Below are positions 25,182 through 33,966 of a stretch of DNA of 35,687 nt, in pieces (the stretch's first letter is position 1; the number at the start of each line of letters is the position of its first letter). Both the position numbers and the translations under genes were made by a program. The notes under the pieces were generated by a model that saw only the letters and a list, made by a program, of their open reading frames with translations, made no database searches and was not told where the DNA came from. Source of the DNA: a virus (taxonomy: Duplodnaviria > Heunggongvirae > Uroviricota > Caudoviricetes); IMG/VR virus record IMGVR_UViG_2690315992_000010; one strand, 5' to 3'.

Positions 25182-27086
25182 TTAGAACGATGTTACCCAG
25201 CTACGGCCTCTATTTGGGCGTCTGGCGATGTTTTTACGTTGTGGTCGTGTGATTGGCTTATTTTCTTCGATTTGCTCGTCAGATTGCGATTTAGGAGCTT
25301 CTACGGATTCTTCTGGTTCACGGTTCAAACTATCTTTGATGGCTTCGAGTTTTTCCCATGACATTTTATTGAGTACATGGCGATAACTAGCCACCGCATA
25401 GGTTAGGCAGTCCAAGCCCTCGTTGCGTTGCTGACCAACTTTTACCCAACGTGTGGTATTACCCTGCCGTTTCAACTGTTCAGATAGCAATTGCTCGCAG
25501 TAGTCATCAGGAACGTCACCAATCTGGAAGACCGTATGAGGATCGCTGTCTCTCAAGTTCCGGTTAATCATTTCACGGATCATCGTCTTAAGGTTGTTTA
25601 CGCCCAGAATTTTAAGGGTAAAACCGCCCGTTCTTGTGTCTTTTACCGGAAGGATTGGAGCATCAACATTACTTGCGCCCTTAATGGCGCATAGATTTTG
25701 CCACCTAGTGCAAAAGCGGTAGATCACTTGCGTAGCTCGTCCGTTTGATGAGTCCACGAAAGCGGATAGCATCGGGATTCGTTGACCGGATCGGGTATAG
25801 AATTTTGCTTTCAGGAAGTTGTAAAGCTGGTCATATGCTGGTGATTCGTGGCGTTCGCAGTTCACATCATAGAATGATCGGTGATCAACTACGCATATCC
25901 CTTTACGAGAGATACCCAGCAAGGTAGATTCCAGACGGTCTTTTTGCTGGTCAACTCCACCTACCAGAGCCAAAACATCATCAGGAATATTATCTAAGCT
26001 AATGTCAGTTTTCAGCGTTTCCAGTTCGTCGGCTGTGCGGTCTTCGTTAAGATCATCGAAGGTTTCACCGAGCACCACATTATAGAACGTTGCCAGCGAC
26101 ATATTCGCGTAGCTATCAGCAAAGTCCACCACACACGCACGGATAGAACTAAACGGAGACATAAGGCGGTTAGCATGAAAACCGATTACTTCCGCATTTG
26201 GTTCGGTGGCGACCCATTCTCCCTGAGCAACAGCACGGAGGCGATCTGGTTCTGACCAATCAGTTTCACATGACGGGCAACGGTAAACGGCTGTGTCTGG
26301 ATTCGGCAGTGATTTACCATTGATTACATGCCAATCAAAGAATACTCTACTCCATTCCATTACGTGTTTGTGTCCGCAATGCTGGCAAACGACGTGGTAT
26401 TTTCTTTTATCCGAGAGTTCCCATTGTTGGTTTATCGCCCCATCCCGCGAAGTTGGAGTAGAAGCAATTACGATCCTTGCATCATCACCGAAAGTGGTTG
26501 CGCGTTGTTCCGCTAGCTGGATCGGGTTCCCTTCGTCTGACTCATCAGCCGCATCAACTTCATCAAGAATAATCAAAGGTAGTGTTTTACCGCGAAGATG
26601 TGATGGACTATTCAACGACATGAAATACATGAATGATCCGTTACGAAGCTGAATAATCGATGAGTTGTTAACGGCATTGCGATCTGACTTGTCGGTGATC
26701 ATCGCCTTTAATTCTGGGGTTGCCTCTAATACTGGCTTCACCTTACCCGCGATCCAGCTATTCAACTCGCGGACGTTTGCTTGCAAAACACCTATATTAG
26801 TGGGGTTGCTGGCGATCCTATGAAAGATAATACCGTTTAGCACAAGAGTTTTACCCAACTGCGCCGAGCACTTTAGCACAATTTTTCGCCTATCTTCGGT
26901 GATCGCGTCCATCATCCCACGTTGGAAAGGATGCAATTTAATTAGCGATCCGGCTTTAACACCATCGGTTGCAACTACATTAGCCTCTACCCATTCGCTA
27001 GGTTTCATGGCTTTAGGTGGGCGAATTGCAGCAGAGATATTTCTGAGAATCTTTTTTAATTTTGCCTTATTAGAAATCAGTTTCAT
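25182..27086 (-). CDS. terminase large subunit (GpA family)
   Basis: 634 aa; Walker A-like KCSAQLGKT, IASTPT motif, Cys-rich zinc-finger-like segment (CQHCGH...CPSC), size similar to lambda gpA; GAGGGTAA RBS before ATG 27086. Confidence 0.8.
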   Translation of the reverse strand: MKLISNKAKLKKILRNISAAIRPPKAMKPSEWVEANVVATDGVKAGSLIKLHPFQRGMMDAITEDRRKIVLKCSAQLGKTLVLNGIIFHRIASNPTNIGVLQANVRELNSWIAGKVKPVLEATPELKAMITDKSDRNAVNNSSIIQLRNGSFMYFMSLNSPSHLRGKTLPLIILDEVDAADESDEGNPIQLAEQRATTFGDDARIVIASTPTSRDGAINQQWELSDKRKYHVVCQHCGHKHVMEWSRVFFDWHVINGKSLPNPDTAVYRCPSCETDWSEPDRLRAVAQGEWVATEPNAEVIGFHANRLMSPFSSIRACVVDFADSYANMSLATFYNVVLGETFDDLNEDRTADELETLKTDISLDNIPDDVLALVGGVDQQKDRLESTLLGISRKGICVVDHRSFYDVNCERHESPAYDQLYNFLKAKFYTRSGQRIPMLSAFVDSSNGRATQVIYRFCTRWQNLCAIKGASNVDAPILPVKDTRTGGFTLKILGVNNLKTMIREMINRNLRDSDPHTVFQIGDVPDDYCEQLLSEQLKRQGNTTRWVKVGQQRNEGLDCLTYAVASYRHVLNKMSWEKLEAIKDSLNREPEESVEAPKSQSDEQIEENKPITRPQRKNIARRPNRGRSWVTSF

Positions 27087-27174: not shown

Positions 27175-27780
27175 ATGCTAATTAATCAGCAACAAAGAGA
27201 TGCATTAGAATTAGCCTTTTCTTGTTGTACCGATCATGAATATCGTTTGCCAGTTAAGCACCATCACAAGAAGACTGATTACACAACATCTGGCTTTAGT
27301 CGTGAGGAAGCTAAACAGATTTTAATCGAGTTGTATCGCGATCATGGGTATACCGATATTCATAACTTCTTTAAGAAGCATCGTACATCACAGACAGAGT
27401 TTAATAGAGTTCGTGAATGGTTTGATTTTGACATTAAGCGATTCTATCGAGTAGATGACGGTCCTATCTATCGGTTGCAGTGGACACCGATTAGGGAAGT
27501 GCTTAAACAGAAGAGATTGAATCATGCCATTACACGCTATCGTAATGTGGCTTTTAAGAAAGGCTATGGTGATTCAAGGGAATTGTTTGTAGAACTCGCT
27601 AACGTGCGATATAGCCACTATTACAGGAATCCTAAAGAGTTCTTCGAAGTGCTGCGCAAGGTTGATATTAGTCGGGGTACATATTATTCACGGTTGAAGA
27701 AGTACGGGATTAAGGCAGAGTTCTTTATGTCGGTTGACGATGGAGAACTTTTTCCGATAAAATGTAAGTCCTCTAAATAA
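27175..27780 (+). CDS. helix-turn-helix protein of unknown function (paralogue family member 1)
   Basis: 201 aa; contains FSREEAKQILIELYRD and C-terminal ISRGTYYSRLKKYGI segments that recur in the two small proteins at 27810 and 31471. Confidence 0.5.
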   Translation: MLINQQQRDALELAFSCCTDHEYRLPVKHHHKKTDYTTSGFSREEAKQILIELYRDHGYTDIHNFFKKHRTSQTEFNRVREWFDFDIKRFYRVDDGPIYRLQWTPIREVLKQKRLNHAITRYRNVAFKKGYGDSRELFVELANVRYSHYYRNPKEFFEVLRKVDISRGTYYSRLKKYGIKAEFFMSVDDGELFPIKCKSSK

Positions 27781-29548: not shown

Positions 29549-29577
29549 ATCATAAAAAAGTCAGAAATTTTTGTCAA
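29549..29577 (-). promoter_or_regulatory. candidate sigma70 promoter (leftward) overlapped by palindromic operator
   Basis: Minus-strand -35 TTGACA (29577-29572), 17-bp spacer, -10 TATGAT (29554-29549). Palindrome TTGTCAA-tacccc-TTGACAA at 29571-29590 overlaps the -35. Confidence 0.4.
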
Positions 29578-29612: not shown

Positions 29613-30071
29613 TTACAGCATATCTAAGCCTTCATCGTAACCGTAGAAGCCACCGTGAGAAGAGAAAGCGATTGGTGCGTAGTCTTCGTCTTCCTCATCT
29701 TGTTCTGGGGCTTCCTGAGCGGTTTCTTTACCGTAATTAAACATTGCTTCATCCAGTTCACGAAGAGTCAAGAAGCTACCCAGGTCAATGTCACCGGAAC
29801 GGACTTGAAACGGCAGATCATCACGAACAATAATTGCTGGTAGATTCTGGTACTTTAAGCGTTCTTCATCGGTGAAGACGTTAACAACAATGGTCGGCTT
29901 CTTATTACGGCAAAACGCATACCATGCACTAGAGAAATGGGATTCATCAGAGTTGAAAAGGATGTTATAACCACGTTCACGGAACATCTTCATTAACTTG
30001 TCATTGTGGAAGCTATCAGAATCCAGACCCAGAAGGATAAAAGGAGTAGTGGTAGTCATCTTGTGGTTCAT
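29613..30071 (-). CDS. hypothetical protein with acidic C-terminal tail
   Basis: 152 aa, GAGGA RBS; C-terminus EAPEQDEEDEDYAP; no domain recognised. Confidence 0.5.
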   Translation of the reverse strand: MNHKMTTTTPFILLGLDSDSFHNDKLMKMFRERGYNILFNSDESHFSSAWYAFCRNKKPTIVVNVFTDEERLKYQNLPAIIVRDDLPFQVRSGDIDLGSFLTLRELDEAMFNYGKETAQEAPEQDEEDEDYAPIAFSSHGGFYGYDEGLDML

Positions 30072-30713
30072 AGTGGAAATCCTCTAAAAGAAAGTGAATC
30101 AAACAAATTACACTAGTATTTATAACGAGAATTTTTTATCTATTTGGAAGGGATTGGTATTCAGTCGGGCATAGCCCTCCTTCATAGATTTTGATTAAAT
30201 CATCATCAAAACGAAGAAGTATCTTTAGAATATAAGAATCTTTCTTTCGAAGAAAGAATAATCAGGAAGCAATTTCAGCAACCGCAGGTTGCGATCCCGA
30301 AGGGATAACCAATACCTTTCTAGAAAGTGATTGTTACTCACTTCGTTCGTTTACTAGAATCAGTTATCATCTAGTATTAAAATCCCTTTCTAAGAAAATC
30401 CTTTCAAAAGTGATTCTCGATGCCACGCAGTGGCGTCGCAGACGTTTGAGAGTGAGCGAAGCGAGCGAGCAAACTAGTTAATTCCTTCTAAGACCATCTA
30501 GTATCATCTAGTTTAAATTAGTTGTTACTAGAAGTAATTGGTTAGCGCTACGCGCAGTCGGGCAAAGCCCTCCTAATATCTTTTTGGTTATTTTTGGTTT
30601 TACACATGAGCGTAGCGAATGTGTTATATAATATCTATGCACGCCCGATTCCCCGTTTTTACCCCTCACTAAGTTAATGTTTTATAAAGAGTTTTTCTTA
30701 CCAATCCTTTTCG

Positions 30714-30906
30714 GGGGCAAATTTCAGGGGCAAAAATTAGATTTTAAGGGGCAATTATTGGCATTTCAGGGGCAAAAATGAGGGGCAAAATCACTGTTTC
30801 CCAGAATTTCAGGGGCAAAAATAGTGGGTTTCAGGGGCAAAAATGGGATAGTGGAATCTTGGGTATTTTGGTTCGGGGGCAAAATTCAGAATTTCAGGGG
30901 CAATTC
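30714..30906. repeat. array of ~9 direct GGGGCAA(A/T) iterons (5 copies of full TTTCAGGGGCAAAAAT)
   Basis: Core starts near 30715, 30727, 30749, 30770, 30782, 30811, 30832, 30876, 30897; spacings mostly 12 or 21 bp; non-coding. Confidence 0.6.
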
Positions 30907-30993
30907 CCATCAAATATTTTGATAGAAAATTCTTGTATATTATTTAATCAAAAAATCACCAAAAAGTGGCGTAAGTTAATGATTTAAAAAGAA

Positions 30994-31019
30994 TTGTCAA
31001 AAGGTCTCCGTGCTATAAT
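30994..31019 (+). promoter_or_regulatory. candidate extended -10 promoter (rightward)
   Basis: TTGTCAA at 30994-31000 and TGcTATAAT at 31011-31019. Confidence 0.35.
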
Positions 31020-31099
31020 AGGTTATAAAGGTTGATAATCCTGATCTACCATTTTCAAACAAAAATTTTGATAGTCATTTCTCGCTTAGGTCAAGTGTA

Positions 31100-31128
31100 T
31101 TGACAACTGTCAAGGATTATTTTATACT
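31100..31128 (+). promoter_or_regulatory. candidate strong sigma70 promoter (rightward) with palindromic -35 region
   Basis: TTGACA (31100-31105), 17-bp spacer, TATACT (31123-31128); -35 lies in palindrome TTGACAACTGTCAA. Confidence 0.5.
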
Positions 31129-31263
31129 TTTTCTCACTGGTGGGGGTTGAAATTTTCTAAACAGTCCCCATATAGATGATAAGCAAGAATTTCCACGTTA
31201 TAAATACATGTGTGAAATGATTGTTCACTTCTGAAAATCTCCTGATCCACTGCTAATTCATAC

Positions 31264-31291
31264 AGCACTGGTTAGATATACAGTGCTTTTT
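31264..31291 (+). terminator. intrinsic terminator-like hairpin (possible end of a ~160-nt small RNA)
   Basis: AGCACTG-gttagatata-CAGTGCT followed by TTTT. Confidence 0.4.
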
Positions 31292-31415
31292 CGGTTGAAT
31301 ATTGTACGAATTGATTAATAATTAATCTTCTCTTTAGCAATTCGTGCTCCCACTGATCGGATATACAGTGGTTTTACAGGGTTTTCTGAAAATCATTTTA
31401 TAAATACAAGTGTTC

Positions 31416-31436
31416 AGAGCGAAATGCTCTTTTTTA
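31416..31436 (+). terminator. attenuator hairpin immediately upstream of gene 31471
   Basis: AGAGC-gaaat-GCTCT followed by TTTTTT. Confidence 0.45.
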
Positions 31437-31470
31437 AGAAATTATTAATCCACATGTGAGGAATCGACTG

Positions 31471-31650
31471 ATGGCTAGACCTGTTAAGTTCACTCGTGAA
31501 ATGATTGTTGATATTGCTAAACGCTTTTACAGCGACACTGAGCGAGGCGGGGAAAACTTCTTTAAGAAGGAAGGAATTGATAGAAGCGGATTCTACAAGC
31601 TAATGAAGAAATACGAAATTCAGGTAAAGATTAACGTTCAAGTTTGTTAA
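31471..31650 (+). CDS. small helix-turn-helix DNA-binding protein (paralogue 3)
   Basis: 59 aa from ATG 31471 (GAGGA RBS); ARPVKFTREMIVDIAKRFY...IDRSGFYKLMKKYEI parallels the 27810 protein. Track start 31456 is GTG. Confidence 0.5.
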   Translation: MARPVKFTREMIVDIAKRFYSDTERGGENFFKKEGIDRSGFYKLMKKYEIQVKINVQVC

Positions 31651-31765
31651 TCCACTTTCACTGAGAATTATATGATGGCTTTAAAAAAAGAAAAAGCCTC
31701 CCTTGTTGCAGCAAAGGAGGCTTGAAATGAACAATTAAAACTAACTTTCTACAGGAGTATTTATA

Positions 31766-32710
31766 ATGTTATTTTCCGCTAACTTTTTCACTAACGAAGT
31801 AACCAACGCTAAAGCAGTTATCAAATTTGGCACCGAAGCAAACAAGAAGATTCAGCCGAAAGTTGTTGTTCATGTTTCCTTTGCGCAGCAGAAATCCGCT
31901 TTCGCTGGCTTTAAAGCACATCGTGAAGCACTGATCGCGGCTGGCTTTGGTGTTGACGGTAAACTGCCTAACGGCATTCGTAAAGCAATCGACCGCGTTA
32001 AACCTGCTAAAGACGTTGCAGTAGACCACATCGTTACTTTCACCGTTAAGAACTCTTCTGAACTGTTCCACCTAGTGATTGCTGGTGATACTGCTATCGT
32101 TTCCGCTCCTAACATGGATTTTCAGGATACCGCTGATTGCAACATTACCTTTGGTCGTCGTAAAGAAGTTACCGGAAAAGCTAAACTGAACTTCACCAAA
32201 TCCGGCAATCCTTACTTTGCTGTATTCTTTAACAGCCACGCTACTGAGAAAGAAGTAGTAGAACTGGTTGCATATGAAGGTGAAGAAAAAGCACGTATTG
32301 AATCTTGCGACGCTTTCGTAGAACTGGAAGCACAGGTTAATGCTGTTTCTCCGGTTGCTGTTGAAGATCGTTTCTCTGCACTGGAAGCACAGATCGCAGA
32401 ACTGAAAGCTGCGCTGGAAGAAAAAGACCAGATCATCGAAGCACAGAAAGCTGAGATTGAAGAACTGAAAGCTAAAGAAGTTGCTCCGGTGGCAGTAGTT
32501 GAAAATGCGGCTGATGAGGCCGCAAATGATGAAGTAGAAGTGAAAATCGATGTGATGCGTGATCCGATGGCTGCACTGCAATTGCTTCGTTCTTTTAAGG
32601 GCAAATCTCATTTTTCTAGTGATGCGGTAGACGAGGAAGAAGAACAGAAACGCAATGTTGCAATGCTTCATGATGAAATGTACGGTACTAACTTTTCTTA
32701 CTGCCAATAA
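31766..32710 (+). CDS. hypothetical protein, apparently highly expressed (N-terminal globular part, C-terminal Ala/Glu-rich coiled-coil-like region)
   Basis: 314 aa; consensus AGGAG RBS 8 nt before ATG; codon usage strongly skewed to CTG/CGT/GGT/GAA/AAA/GCT; bracketed by terminators. No family recognised. Confidence 0.6.
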   Translation: MLFSANFFTNEVTNAKAVIKFGTEANKKIQPKVVVHVSFAQQKSAFAGFKAHREALIAAGFGVDGKLPNGIRKAIDRVKPAKDVAVDHIVTFTVKNSSELFHLVIAGDTAIVSAPNMDFQDTADCNITFGRRKEVTGKAKLNFTKSGNPYFAVFFNSHATEKEVVELVAYEGEEKARIESCDAFVELEAQVNAVSPVAVEDRFSALEAQIAELKAALEEKDQIIEAQKAEIEELKAKEVAPVAVVENAADEAANDEVEVKIDVMRDPMAALQLLRSFKGKSHFSSDAVDEEEEQKRNVAMLHDEMYGTNFSYCQ

Positions 32711-33408: not shown

Positions 33409-33966
33409 TTACGACACATCAAATTCATCATCTTCTTCTGGTTCTTGTTCTTCCGGTTCATCCATTAATGGTAATTCTTCTTCCTCGTCTTCTCCCAAAT
33501 CTGCATTTTCGAACAAGTCCCCTACTTCATTTAAACGACGCTCGATGATCTCCCTTAGCTTATTCTTCAATGTTTTCTGGTCAGTTGCAGATTCGAGAAT
33601 TTCTAAAGCGTCGATTGTGGCGATCTGCAAAATAGTCTGTTTCACTTTCCCGCAGTATTCCGCTAGTTGCTGTTCTACATAACCGACAGGAATCAGGAGA
33701 TTCATTTTTTCCTGGTTCTCTCGTTCGGCTGCATCTGCCATTGCTCTTTCTCTGCGGAGACGTTCTTGATCAATCGCTTCTTTGATTGAAGTTTGTTTAA
33801 GTGGGTTAATTACGTTCTTTAGCACCCAATCGCAACCTTCCTTTGCTGGAACACGCCTCTTATTGGTATTGTAAGGTAGTCCCCTTTCTAACCATCGCTT
33901 ACCGCCACCATTCAATGTATAACCATATAAACGGGAAATTTCTGTAAGGGTTAATTCTTCTTTCAT
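33409..33966 (-). CDS. terminase small subunit (Nu1-like) candidate
   Basis: N-terminal HTH segment LTLTEISRLYGYTLNGGGKRWLERGLPY resembles the Nu1 DNA-binding domain pattern; central coiled-coil; strongly acidic C-terminus; GGAGGA RBS; palindromes and GC-rich site just upstream. Confidence 0.5.
   Translation of the reverse strand: MKEELTLTEISRLYGYTLNGGGKRWLERGLPYNTNKRRVPAKEGCDWVLKNVINPLKQTSIKEAIDQERLRRERAMADAAERENQEKMNLLIPVGYVEQQLAEYCGKVKQTILQIATIDALEILESATDQKTLKNKLREIIERRLNEVGDLFENADLGEDEEEELPLMDEPEEQEPEEDDEFDVS

What the first reader, a model, noticed from the sequence alone, without database searches (positions are those of the whole stretch)
31100..31291. Candidate ~160-nt small RNA between a strong promoter and a terminator
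A near-consensus promoter (TTGACA-17-TATACT at 31100-31128) is followed about 160 nt later by a terminator hairpin (31264-31291) with no ORF in between. A second attenuator (31416-31436) sits right before the small HTH gene at 31471. This suggests a small RNA or an antitermination-controlled leader.
Basis: inference. Interest (0 to 1): 0.5.

Follow-up and report, generated by a model that had tools for sequence, protein, structure and literature searches.

The report
SOS-box leader of a prophage operon
The promoter and hairpin are real, but the "terminator" is also the best LexA (DNA-damage repressor) binding site in this E. coli prophage, so the stretch is more likely a damage-sensing, attenuated leader of the phage's early genes than a free-standing small RNA.

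Summary
The window is an uncharacterised E. coli prophage: about 35 kb, integrated in ycdX, present in 58 of 5426 complete genomes. The finding lies in a 1.4-kb gene-free control region.

The TTGACA-17-TATACT promoter is by far the strongest in the region and is kept in 27/27 relatives. A 7-bp hairpin with a U5 tract (dG about -10) follows about 155 nt later. No ORF with a ribosome-binding site lies between. A small terminator (31416-31436) precedes the 59-aa HTH gene.

The hairpin contains the best LexA operator of the whole window (31266-31285, score 20.7, mid-range of 18 published E. coli SOS boxes, shuffle p about 0.005). A second box abuts it (31248-31267).

Only one of three interchangeable leader cassettes ("class A") has these boxes. 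All three classes keep the pattern of consensus promoter, 240-400-nt non-coding leader, last terminator, HTH gene, then an orphan protein that co-varies with the iterons.

Best reading: an SOS-gated, multiply attenuated leader. A roughly 155-nt RNA is a plausible product but is not shown to be a functional sRNA. There is no Rfam match, and covariation is weak. How LexA acts from +113 is inferred, not shown.

The parts
31100..31128 (+). Near-consensus sigma-70 promoter TTGACA-17-TATACT; predicted start about 31136
   Evidence: kept in 27/27 relatives; a homologous 12/12 promoter is present in the distant relative L186
31100..31113 (.). Palindrome TTGAC-N4-GTCAA overlapping the -35 hexamer and spacer; possible operator for an unknown protein
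   Evidence: only exact copy in the window; arms conserved and centre variable in relatives; same palindrome in L186
31140..31171 (+). Hairpin HP1 (GGGG...CCCC stem, ~18-nt A/U-rich loop) plus TATAGAT; this module also occurs in class B leaders, just upstream of the last terminator
   Evidence: dG -11.3; class B copy; single copy in the window
31182..31225 (+). Hairpin HP2 with conserved loop UAUAAAUAC; the stem is kept through three different stem sequences
   Evidence: dG -8 to -14 in 10 of 11 variants; loop motif TTATAAATAC
31212..31240 (+). Stretch GTGAAATGATTGTTCACTTCTGAAAATCT just upstream of the LexA boxes; invariant in nearly all of the 27 relatives. Its first 14 nt are repeated in the HTH coding sequence (31496-31509)
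31248..31267 (.). LexA box A (CACTGCTAATTCATACAGCA); weak in this window, strong in most relatives (CACTGTTAATTCATACAGCA)
   Evidence: score 13.3 here, median 15.5 and up to 18.9 in relatives; the weakest published E. coli site scores 13.1
31266..31285 (.). LexA box B (CACTGGTTAGATATACAGTG), the best SOS-box match in the window
   Evidence: score 20.7, mid-range of 18 published sites; 1 of 200 shuffles reaches it; 15.5-21.6 in 27/27 relatives; absent from class B and class C leaders
31264..31291 (+). It occupies the same DNA as LexA box B
   Evidence: dG -10.1; intact in 23/27 relatives; one compensatory A-U to G-C pair at its base
31304..31347 (+). Hairpin HP3 (10+4 bp); its loop holds the DNA palindrome GATTAAT-A-ATTAATC (31313-31327). 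It is part of the most conserved stretch of the leader
   Evidence: (99.7% of cells paired; only one-sided changes)
31350..31375 (+). Hairpin T2 (CCACTG-N10-CAGTGG plus UUUU), a diverged copy of T1. Its LexA score is sub-threshold
   Evidence: D7; dG -7.4; LexA score 10.6, range 6.5-12.4 in relatives
31416..31436 (+). Terminator T3 (5-bp stem, U6) about 35 nt before the HTH start codon; the only leader terminator shared by classes A, B and C
   Evidence: dG -5.9 to -8.0
31471..31650 (+). 59-aa HTH protein, first gene of the rightward operon; paralogous to two repeats in the 201-aa protein at 27175-27780
31766..32710 (+). 314-aa orphan protein that co-varies with the iteron block at 30413-30908; inferred iteron-binding initiator

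Best explanation
The stretch is the 5' part of a ~335-nt untranslated leader of the prophage's rightward early operon (59-aa HTH protein, then the iteron-linked 314-aa protein).

The leader starts at a strong promoter (31100-31128). It carries a cassette with two abutting LexA operators (31248-31285, at +113 to +150) and three weak hairpin/U-tract attenuators (T1 31264-31291, T2 31350-31375, T3 31416-31436). T1 is built from the same palindrome as LexA box B.

Inferred mechanism:
- In the lysogen, LexA dimers on boxes A and B block or queue polymerases coming from the promoter (a roadblock).
- The few polymerases that pass are thinned by the three attenuators, so the HTH and initiator genes stay off.
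- DNA damage removes LexA, and enough transcription reaches the operon to start lytic replication.
- A short RNA (~155 nt ending at T1, or ~95-100 nt at the roadblock) would then be a by-product of this control rather than the functional unit.

Shown: the promoter, hairpins, LexA-box quality, their conservation, the cassette nature of the leader and the operon context.

Inferred: LexA binding, the roadblock action, the termination efficiencies, and the role of the operon in induction.
For: Promoter strength and conservation are supported.

LexA boxes were scored with a matrix built only from the 18 E. coli SOS boxes of Table 4 in PMC3009722:
- Box B scores 20.7, against 13.1-25.6 for the published sites, and is the top hit of the window. 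Only 1 of 200 shuffles reaches that score.
- No shuffle gives two hits >=12.5 within 130 bp.
- Box B scores >=15.5 in 27/27 relatives. Box A has a median of 15.5 and reaches 18.9.
- Box A cannot form a useful RNA hairpin, so a terminator does not explain its conservation.
- Natural CAGTG->CAGTA changes in L045, L053 and L119 move box B toward the LexA consensus while reducing the hairpin to dG -3.1. L056 and L119 have a broken U-tract (TTATT) but intact boxes.

The boxes occur only in class A leaders, not in class B or C. That fits a swappable sensory cassette inside a conserved frame of promoter, leader, T3 and HTH gene.

No CI-type or S24-type repressor is recognisable in the prophage.

Precedents: LexA is listed among natural roadblock proteins, and a strong roadblock close to a promoter can back polymerases up onto it (PMC10310618). 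Paired overlapping SOS boxes binding two LexA dimers are typical of colicin operons (PMC2994835).
Against: - The boxes lie 113-150 bp downstream of the only strong promoter. Canonical LexA repression acts at or within about 40 bp of the start site (own knowledge), and no conserved promoter overlaps the boxes.
- A high polymerase flux from a strong promoter tends to overcome roadblocks (PMC10310618).
- The hairpin also looks selected. It is intact with its U-tract in 23/27 relatives. In L122, L137 and L072 an A-U to G-C change lengthens the stem and at the same time destroys the CAG of box A.
- Box A is weak in this particular window (13.3), and box C is below the weakest published site.
- Class B and C relatives work without LexA boxes, so LexA cannot be the general control of this operon.
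- No binding or transcript data exist.
Confidence: 0.45

Rival explanations
1. A genuine regulatory small RNA of the phage-immunity type. In this reading the strong promoter is constitutive in the lysogen. The ~155-nt RNA (or a processed part of it) acts in cis or trans to enforce premature termination before the HTH and initiator genes. This resembles P4 CI RNA, P1/P7 c4 RNA and N15 CA RNA (own knowledge of those systems). The interchangeable leader classes would be immunity or incompatibility types.
For: - The architecture matches: a strong promoter, an untranslated RNA, then terminator(s) upstream of replication and regulatory genes.
- The leader is a self-contained cassette. Its class does not co-vary with the HTH type or the iteron/initiator type.
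- No protein repressor is recognisable.
- HP2 keeps its hairpin through three stem variants around a conserved loop.
- A stretch at 31212-31240 is invariant in nearly all relatives.
Against: - No match to any Rfam family at E<=10 in this stretch, so none to the phage antisense RNA families Rfam holds.
- No conserved complementarity between the RNA and the downstream leader or HTH start. The best candidate (31208-31222 with 31391-31405) is not kept in relatives.
- Covariation over five helices is minimal: 1 of 42 pairs.
- The T1 terminator is lost in some relatives.
- It does not explain the LexA boxes.
Confidence: 0.2
2. Two separate units. T1 is a true terminator that ends a short transcript from the strong promoter and insulates what follows. 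The LexA boxes repress a weak internal promoter buried in them (TTCATA-16-TACAGT, 31257-31284; start about 31291). That internal promoter would be the real SOS-inducible promoter of the HTH operon.
For: - The candidate promoter is entirely covered by boxes A and B, which is the canonical geometry for LexA repression.
- Its transcript would start after the T1 hairpin and so escape T1.
- T1 is intact in most relatives.
Against: - The internal promoter is weak (score 6.9 against 14.6).
- Its -35 hexamer is not conserved (TTCATA, CTCATA, CACATA, TTAATA), and it passes threshold in only 15 of 27 relatives.
- The predicted start falls in a run of T.
- T2 and T3 would still attenuate its transcript.
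Confidence: 0.15
3. A nut/put/Q-type antitermination leader. HP1 and HP2 at the 5' end would form an RNA (or DNA) element that makes polymerase terminator-resistant once a phage factor is present, perhaps one encoded by the leftward operon. T1-T3 are then ordinary terminators, and the LexA resemblance is secondary.
For: - The HP1 module (GGGGTTGAAA...CCCC-TATArAT) lies upstream of every terminator in both class A (at +5) and class B (just before T3), despite otherwise unrelated leaders.
- Three terminators in series in front of an operon is typical of antitermination control (own knowledge of lambda and HK022).
Against: - No N-like or Q-like protein is recognisable.
- The downstream genes are an HTH protein and a putative initiator, not late genes.
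- The HP1 stem shows no covariation, and in class C only the sequence TTGAAcTTTCT is kept, not the hairpin.
- No Rfam hit.
Confidence: 0.1
4. Plain intrinsic terminators. On this view the similarity to LexA boxes is a coincidence of palindromic stems.
For: - Both B-type and C-type palindromes are followed directly by U-tracts.
- There is a compensatory pair at the base of T1.
- The boxes are far from the promoter.
Against: - A stem ending in CTG/CAG with exactly 10 intervening bases and an ATATA flank gives the top LexA score of 35.7 kb (shuffle p about 0.005).
- An abutting second box has no hairpin or U-tract of its own.
- Box B is better conserved than the hairpin.
Confidence: 0.07

Closest known systems
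LexA-controlled prophage induction genes (coliphage 186 tum, N15 antC, Gifsy antirepressors; GIL01, where LexA itself represses the lytic promoter)
   Same: Host LexA operators sit in a prophage control region upstream of a small regulatory gene, and the prophage lacks a recognisably cleavable repressor. The GIL01 case is from PMC4551915 (abstract); the others are own knowledge.
   Different: In those systems the SOS box overlaps the regulated promoter. Here the boxes lie at +113 to +150 of the only strong promoter, coincide with a hairpin/U-tract, and are followed by two more attenuators. None of the proteins is homologous to known antirepressors.
Double overlapping SOS boxes of colicin operons
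   Same: Two abutting 20-mers (overlapping by 2 bp here) could bind two LexA dimers for tight repression (PMC2994835).
   Different: Colicin boxes lie immediately downstream of the -10 element (own knowledge). Here there is no adjacent strong promoter, and box A is degenerate in this window (13.3).
Phage immunity RNAs made from a leader: P4 CI, P1/P7 c4, N15 CA
   Same: A constitutive-looking promoter, an untranslated RNA, and premature termination upstream of replication or antirepressor genes. The leader comes in exchangeable cassettes, as heteroimmune types would.
   Different: No sequence or structure match (Rfam). No conserved target complementarity was found. Processing is unknown. Those systems do not carry LexA boxes in the RNA gene (own knowledge).
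Lambda PR'-6S RNA-tR' and nut/put antitermination leaders
   Same: A strong promoter followed by a short terminated non-coding transcript, with further terminators before the regulated genes.
   Different: No Q-like or N-like gene was found. The downstream genes are early or replication genes, not late genes. No -10-like pause element or boxA/boxB pair was identified.
Protein roadblocks to elongating RNA polymerase (PurR, GalR, LacI, LexA)
   Same: A repressor site sits well inside the transcribed region. LexA is cited as a natural roadblock (PMC10310618).
   Different: A roadblock site that is also an intrinsic-terminator-like hairpin, embedded in a prophage switch, is not among the roadblock examples quoted from that review, and a literature search for LexA roadblocks in prophages found none.

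Membership tests
Intrinsic (Rho-independent) terminator | G+C-rich stem directly followed by a U-tract | tested here: met
   7-bp stem (4 G-C pairs), dG -10.1, followed by UUUUU
Intrinsic (Rho-independent) terminator | Short loop (usually 3-8 nt) | tested here: not met
   The loop is 10 nt, so the scan with a 3-8 limit did not report it
Intrinsic (Rho-independent) terminator | Hairpin and U-tract maintained in relatives | tested here: inconclusive
   Intact in 23/27. The hairpin is lost in 3 (dG -3.1) and the U-tract broken in 2. One compensatory pair
Intrinsic (Rho-independent) terminator | Transcripts end there | not testable with these tools
   Needs Term-seq, 3' RACE or in vitro transcription
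E. coli LexA operator (SOS box) | CTG-N10-CAG core with an A/T-rich centre; consensus TACTG(TA)5CAGTA (PMC12527982) | tested here: met
   Boxes at 31250-31265, 31268-31283 and 31353-31368. Box B matches 15/20 consensus positions
E. coli LexA operator (SOS box) | Score within the range of experimentally supported sites | tested here: met
   Box B scores 20.7 against 13.1-25.6 for the 18 published sites. Box A scores 13.3 here and up to 18.9 in relatives. Box C scores 10.6 and is not met
E. coli LexA operator (SOS box) | Overlaps or closely follows the promoter it represses | tested here: not met
   The boxes are at +113 to +150 of P(31100). The only overlapping promoter-like site is weak and not conserved
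E. coli LexA operator (SOS box) | LexA binds, and expression is SOS-inducible | not testable with these tools
   Needs EMSA, footprinting or ChIP, plus reporters in lexA mutants
Phage leader-encoded immunity RNAs (P1 c4 / P4 CI / N15 CA type) | Match to the described RNA family models | tested here: not met
   No Rfam family overlaps 31100-31440 on the + strand, even at E<=10
Phage leader-encoded immunity RNAs (P1 c4 / P4 CI / N15 CA type) | Encoded between a constitutive promoter and a terminator, upstream of the controlled genes | tested here: met
Phage leader-encoded immunity RNAs (P1 c4 / P4 CI / N15 CA type) | Conserved complementarity between the RNA and target sites in the same transcript | tested here: not met
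   The best long-range pairings are 8-15 nt and are not kept in relatives
Lambda-type Q/N or HK022 put antitermination leader | Cognate antiterminator gene, or a put-like double hairpin with covariation | tested here: inconclusive
   No N or Q homologue by Pfam or PHROGs. HP1 and HP2 exist, but only HP2 shows stem variation

The most novel reading that the evidence does not exclude
This prophage family may have no repressor protein of its own for the early-right operon. Silencing would be done by host LexA acting as an elongation roadblock on operators that double as terminator hairpins, together with a leader RNA that enforces premature termination (P4-like). The sensory part would be a plug-in cassette (class A with SOS boxes, classes B and C without) that can be swapped between otherwise identical prophages.
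Probability: 0.12. Interest if true: 0.75.

Novelty: new variant of a known kind. Interest (0 to 1): 0.45.

Why it matters
If LexA acts here, it links the SOS response to prophage induction in an unusual way. The operators sit deep inside a transcribed leader and are fused to terminator-like hairpins, rather than overlapping a promoter.

The control module is exchangeable. Closely related prophages at the same ycdX site carry non-homologous leaders without SOS boxes. That would explain how one phage family can switch between SOS-dependent and SOS-independent induction by recombination of a few hundred base pairs.

The family is common enough to study. It is in about 1% of complete E. coli genomes, and the exact HTH protein is indexed in about 2000 blocks of the public assembly collection. 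All its early genes are still unannotated.

It also warns against calling sRNAs from a promoter-plus-hairpin pattern alone. A palindromic repressor site followed by T residues looks just like a terminator.

Tried and rejected
- **Database matches.** Rfam gave nothing at gathering thresholds for the whole window, and nothing at E<=10 for 30000-31800 that overlaps the candidate. Megablast and blastn against phage and plasmid collections found no match.
- **Species-representative genomes.** The 314-aa protein and the double-box pattern both gave nothing.
- **Metagenome scan.** A scan with a 17-mer returned mostly chance hits. Only 12 of those loci were related.
- **Trans targets.** The RNAduplex scan timed out. 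A short-word blast found no convincing complementary site in the phage.
- **P4-like internal complementarity.** The 31208-31222 / 31391-31405 pairing is not conserved.
- **5' anti-terminator pairing.** The single-sequence fold pairs CACUG at 31135 with the 3' arm of T1. I rejected it because the 5' CACTG is not conserved (GTTGG and ATTGG in relatives).
- **RNAalifold consensus.** It did not recover T1 or HP2 and included promoter DNA, so I tested hand-specified helices instead.
- **Minus-strand 44-aa ORF.** It is frameshifted in relatives.
- **Promoter overlapping the LexA boxes.** None is strong or conserved on either strand.
- **First LexA matrix.** It came from memory. I replaced it with one built only from a published table. 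With the published matrix, box C dropped below threshold.
- **Literature.** Searches found nothing on this prophage.

Full report
**Context**

The window is a temperate phage genome. It has a lambda gpA-like large terminase, portal, capsid and tail genes on the minus strand. It also carries a large serine recombinase, a Rha-family regulator and a HicB antitoxin.

The phage and plasmid collections hold nothing similar at the DNA level. The region does match 58 of 5426 complete E. coli genomes, always on the chromosome. In strain GN4741 the ~35-kb element splits ycdX. RefSeq annotates every early gene as hypothetical apart from "Rha family transcriptional regulator" and "recombinase family protein". 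I found no CI-like or S24-peptidase repressor and no replication protein.

The finding lies in a 1.4-kb gene-free region (30072-31470) between a leftward operon (152 aa, 110 aa, Rha) and a rightward operon (59-aa HTH protein at 31471-31650, then a 314-aa protein at 31766-32710).

- **Promoter.** TTGACA-17-TATACT at 31100-31128 matches 11/12. It is one of two such matches in the window, where 0.45 are expected. It is far stronger than any other site in 30050-31800 (PWM 14.6 against 9.95).
- **Hairpin.** AGCACTG, a 10-nt loop, CAGTGCT and TTTTT lie at 31264-31291, with dG -10.1. The scan missed it only because of its loop limit.
- **No ORF.** Between the predicted start (~31136) and the HTH gene there are only ORFs of 19 codons or fewer, none with a ribosome-binding site. 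The 44-aa ORF on the other strand is frameshifted in relatives.
- **Second attenuator.** The element at 31416-31436 is real. A further hairpin with a U-tract, a diverged copy of the first, lies at 31350-31375 (D7).

**Relatives**

Protein-anchored and pattern searches recovered many related prophages from IMG/VR, metagenomes and NCBI/Logan assemblies. They are mosaics.

Leader classes at the same position:
- **Class A:** 27 distinct sequences homologous to this window at 87-99.8% identity.
- **Class B:** unrelated in sequence, with two tandem consensus promoters, a ~380-nt leader and only the last terminator.
- **Class C:** found in a more distant ycdX prophage (L186, 314-aa homologue 50% identical). 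It has a 12/12 promoter homologous to the class A promoter, a ~245-nt leader and only the last terminator.

The leader class does not co-vary with the HTH type or with the iteron/initiator type. The shared plan is a consensus promoter, a 240-400-nt non-coding leader, terminator T3, the HTH gene and the 314-aa-type gene. T3 is the conserved terminator.

**The twist**

The stems of T1 and T2 are CACTG/CAGTG separated by 10 bases, which is CTG-N10-CAG, the core of the E. coli LexA operator. The consensus is TACTG(TA)5CAGTA (PMC12527982).

I first scored the window with a matrix recalled from memory. I then rebuilt it from the 18 SOS boxes tabulated in PMC3009722. Results with the published matrix:

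| Site | Coordinates | Score | Comment |
|---|---|---|---|
| Box B | 31266-31285 | 20.7 | Best site in the 35.7-kb window; published sites span 13.1-25.6; 16/20 bases identical to the cho box; 1 of 200 shuffles reaches it |
| Box A | 31248-31267 | 13.3 | Overlaps box B by 2 bp; third-best hit of the window |
| Box C (T2) | 31351-31370 | 10.6 | Below the weakest published site |

No shuffle gave two hits of 12.5 or more within 130 bp.

Across the 27 class A sequences, box B scores 15.5-21.6 in all. Box A has a median of 15.5 and a maximum of 18.9; most relatives have CTGT where this window has CTGC. Classes B and C have no such boxes in the leader.

**Operator or terminator?**

Both signals are present, and different lineages trade one against the other.

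- **Favouring LexA.**
  - Box B is kept in 27/27 relatives.
  - Box A has no usable hairpin or U-tract, yet is a good SOS box in most relatives.
  - In L045, L053 and L119, CAGTG became CAGTA. That moves toward the consensus (score 19.4-21.6) but reduces the hairpin to dG -3.1.
  - L056 and L119 have TTATT in place of the U-tract.
- **Favouring a hairpin.**
  - 23/27 relatives keep the stem and the U-tract.
  - In L122, L137 and L072 the pair at the base of the stem changed from A-U to G-C, with a G-U intermediate in L054. That strengthens T1 to dG -11.5 and at the same time destroys the CAG of box A.

Structure counts over five helices are compatible with folding (98.9% of cells paired). However, only 1 of 42 pairs has a compensatory change, because divergence is low. 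HP2 (31182-31225) is the best structural case. Three different stem sequences preserve a hairpin around the conserved loop UAUAAAUAC.

**How it may work**

The boxes lie at +113 to +150 of the only strong promoter, and no conserved promoter overlaps them. The best candidate, TTCATA-16-TACAGT at 31257-31284, scores 6.9 and its -35 hexamer varies. Canonical repression of initiation is therefore not supported.

LexA is cited among natural roadblock proteins, and a strong roadblock near a promoter can back polymerases up onto it (PMC10310618). Paired SOS boxes give very tight repression in colicin operons (PMC2994835).

My preferred model is an SOS-gated leader. LexA on boxes A and B blocks polymerases from P(31100). 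Three weak attenuators (dG -10.1, -7.4 and -5.9) thin out what leaks through. LexA cleavage then lets transcription reach the HTH and 314-aa genes. This is inference; I put it at about 0.45.

The alternatives are:
- a P4/P1/N15-style immunity RNA (0.2);
- a weak LexA-repressed internal promoter, with T1 acting as an insulator (0.15);
- a nut/put-like antitermination leader (0.1), supported by HP1 lying upstream of all terminators in classes A and B;
- coincidence (0.07).

**What the operon is**

The iteron block (TTTCAGGGGCAAAAAT repeated at least nine times at 21-22-bp phasing, 30709-30908) co-varies with the 314-aa gene. Relatives with an unrelated 351-aa gene carry TAGTGTAGG iterons instead. 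The two proteins still share a coiled coil and a C-terminal tail. I therefore infer that the 314-aa protein binds the iterons and is probably a replication initiator.

It is an orphan. Only two distant homologues turned up among 1.8 billion representatives. Structure prediction failed (pLDDT 55) and the fold search returned only coiled coils.

The 59-aa HTH protein is paralogous to two repeats in the 201-aa protein at 27175-27780. This suggests a small antagonist or partner of a larger DNA-binding regulator.

**Verdict**

The most informative new fact is that the "terminator" is the best LexA operator in the prophage and sits in an exchangeable leader cassette.

I class this as a new variant of a known kind (SOS-controlled prophage early genes). 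The placement of the operators and their fusion with hairpins is unusual. Interest is moderate, at 0.45.

Noticed in passing
window 30709-30908 (block 30413-30908) and 31766-32710: At least nine iterons (TTTCAGGGGCAAAAAT, 21-22-bp phasing) co-vary with the orphan 314-aa gene. Relatives with a different 351-aa gene carry TAGTGTAGG iterons. The two proteins share a coiled coil and a C-terminal tail. This looks like an unrecognised origin/initiator pair.
   Followed up: partly
window 30116-30125(-), 31198-31207(+), 31398-31407(+), 31757-31766(-): TTATAAATAC occurs exactly four times, all within the 1.65-kb control region (0.16 expected). One copy is in the HP2 loop, one is 9 nt before T3, one is 45 nt upstream of the leftward 152-aa gene, and one lies between the SD sequence and the ATG of the 314-aa gene. 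A TATAAAT-like motif also precedes T3 in classes B and C. Its function is unknown.
   Followed up: partly
window 31694-31723 (- strand terminator): A strong minus-strand terminator (12-bp stem, dG -19, T-run) sits between two plus-strand genes (HTH and 314 aa). It is conserved in classes A, B and C and in both initiator types. It might end an antisense RNA against the initiator 5' UTR, or stop read-through from the convergent operon. No good minus-strand promoter was found.
   Followed up: partly
window 31471-31650 and 27175-27780: The 59-aa HTH protein is paralogous to two tandem repeats in the 201-aa protein encoded divergently from the terminase operon (BLASTP E 1e-6 and 4e-3).
   Followed up: partly
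window 31313-31327 and 31444-31450: A perfect palindrome GATTAAT-A-ATTAATC lies in the most conserved part of the leader, with conserved arms and a variable centre in relatives. The half-site ATTAATC recurs just before the HTH ribosome-binding site, in class B as well. This is a likely protein operator.
   Followed up: no
window 29549-29577 (- strand): The second 11/12 consensus promoter of the window (TTGACA-17-TATGAT) lies between the 152-aa and 110-aa genes and points at the 110-aa/Rha genes.
   Followed up: no
L003 3227-3284 (class B leader): Two tandem consensus promoters, 11/12 and 12/12, both with TG extensions and offset by 28 bp. They drive a ~380-nt non-coding leader that ends at the T3 equivalent.
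   Followed up: partly
window 31212-31225 and 31496-31509: A 14-nt exact direct repeat, GTGAAATGATTGTT, is shared by the invariant part of the leader and codons 9-13 of the HTH gene. It may be a remnant of a partial duplication of the gene's 5' end.
   Followed up: no
window 30162-30181 and 30555-30574; 30072-30700 generally: A repeated small hairpin motif, CAGTCGGGCAwAGCCCTCCT, and several other repeats lie in the left half of the gene-free region. That half is conserved in all leader classes and may hold further RNA or protein sites.
   Followed up: no
window 33409-33966 (-) and 25182-27086 (-): A Nu1-like small terminase gene lies 6 kb from the gpA-like large terminase gene, on the other side of the early region. 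It is next to the prophage end in strain GN4741.
   Followed up: no
H17, NZ_CP044443.1 (strain HeN100): An IS5-like ISKpn26 element is inserted within the homologous control region in one E. coli genome.
   Followed up: no
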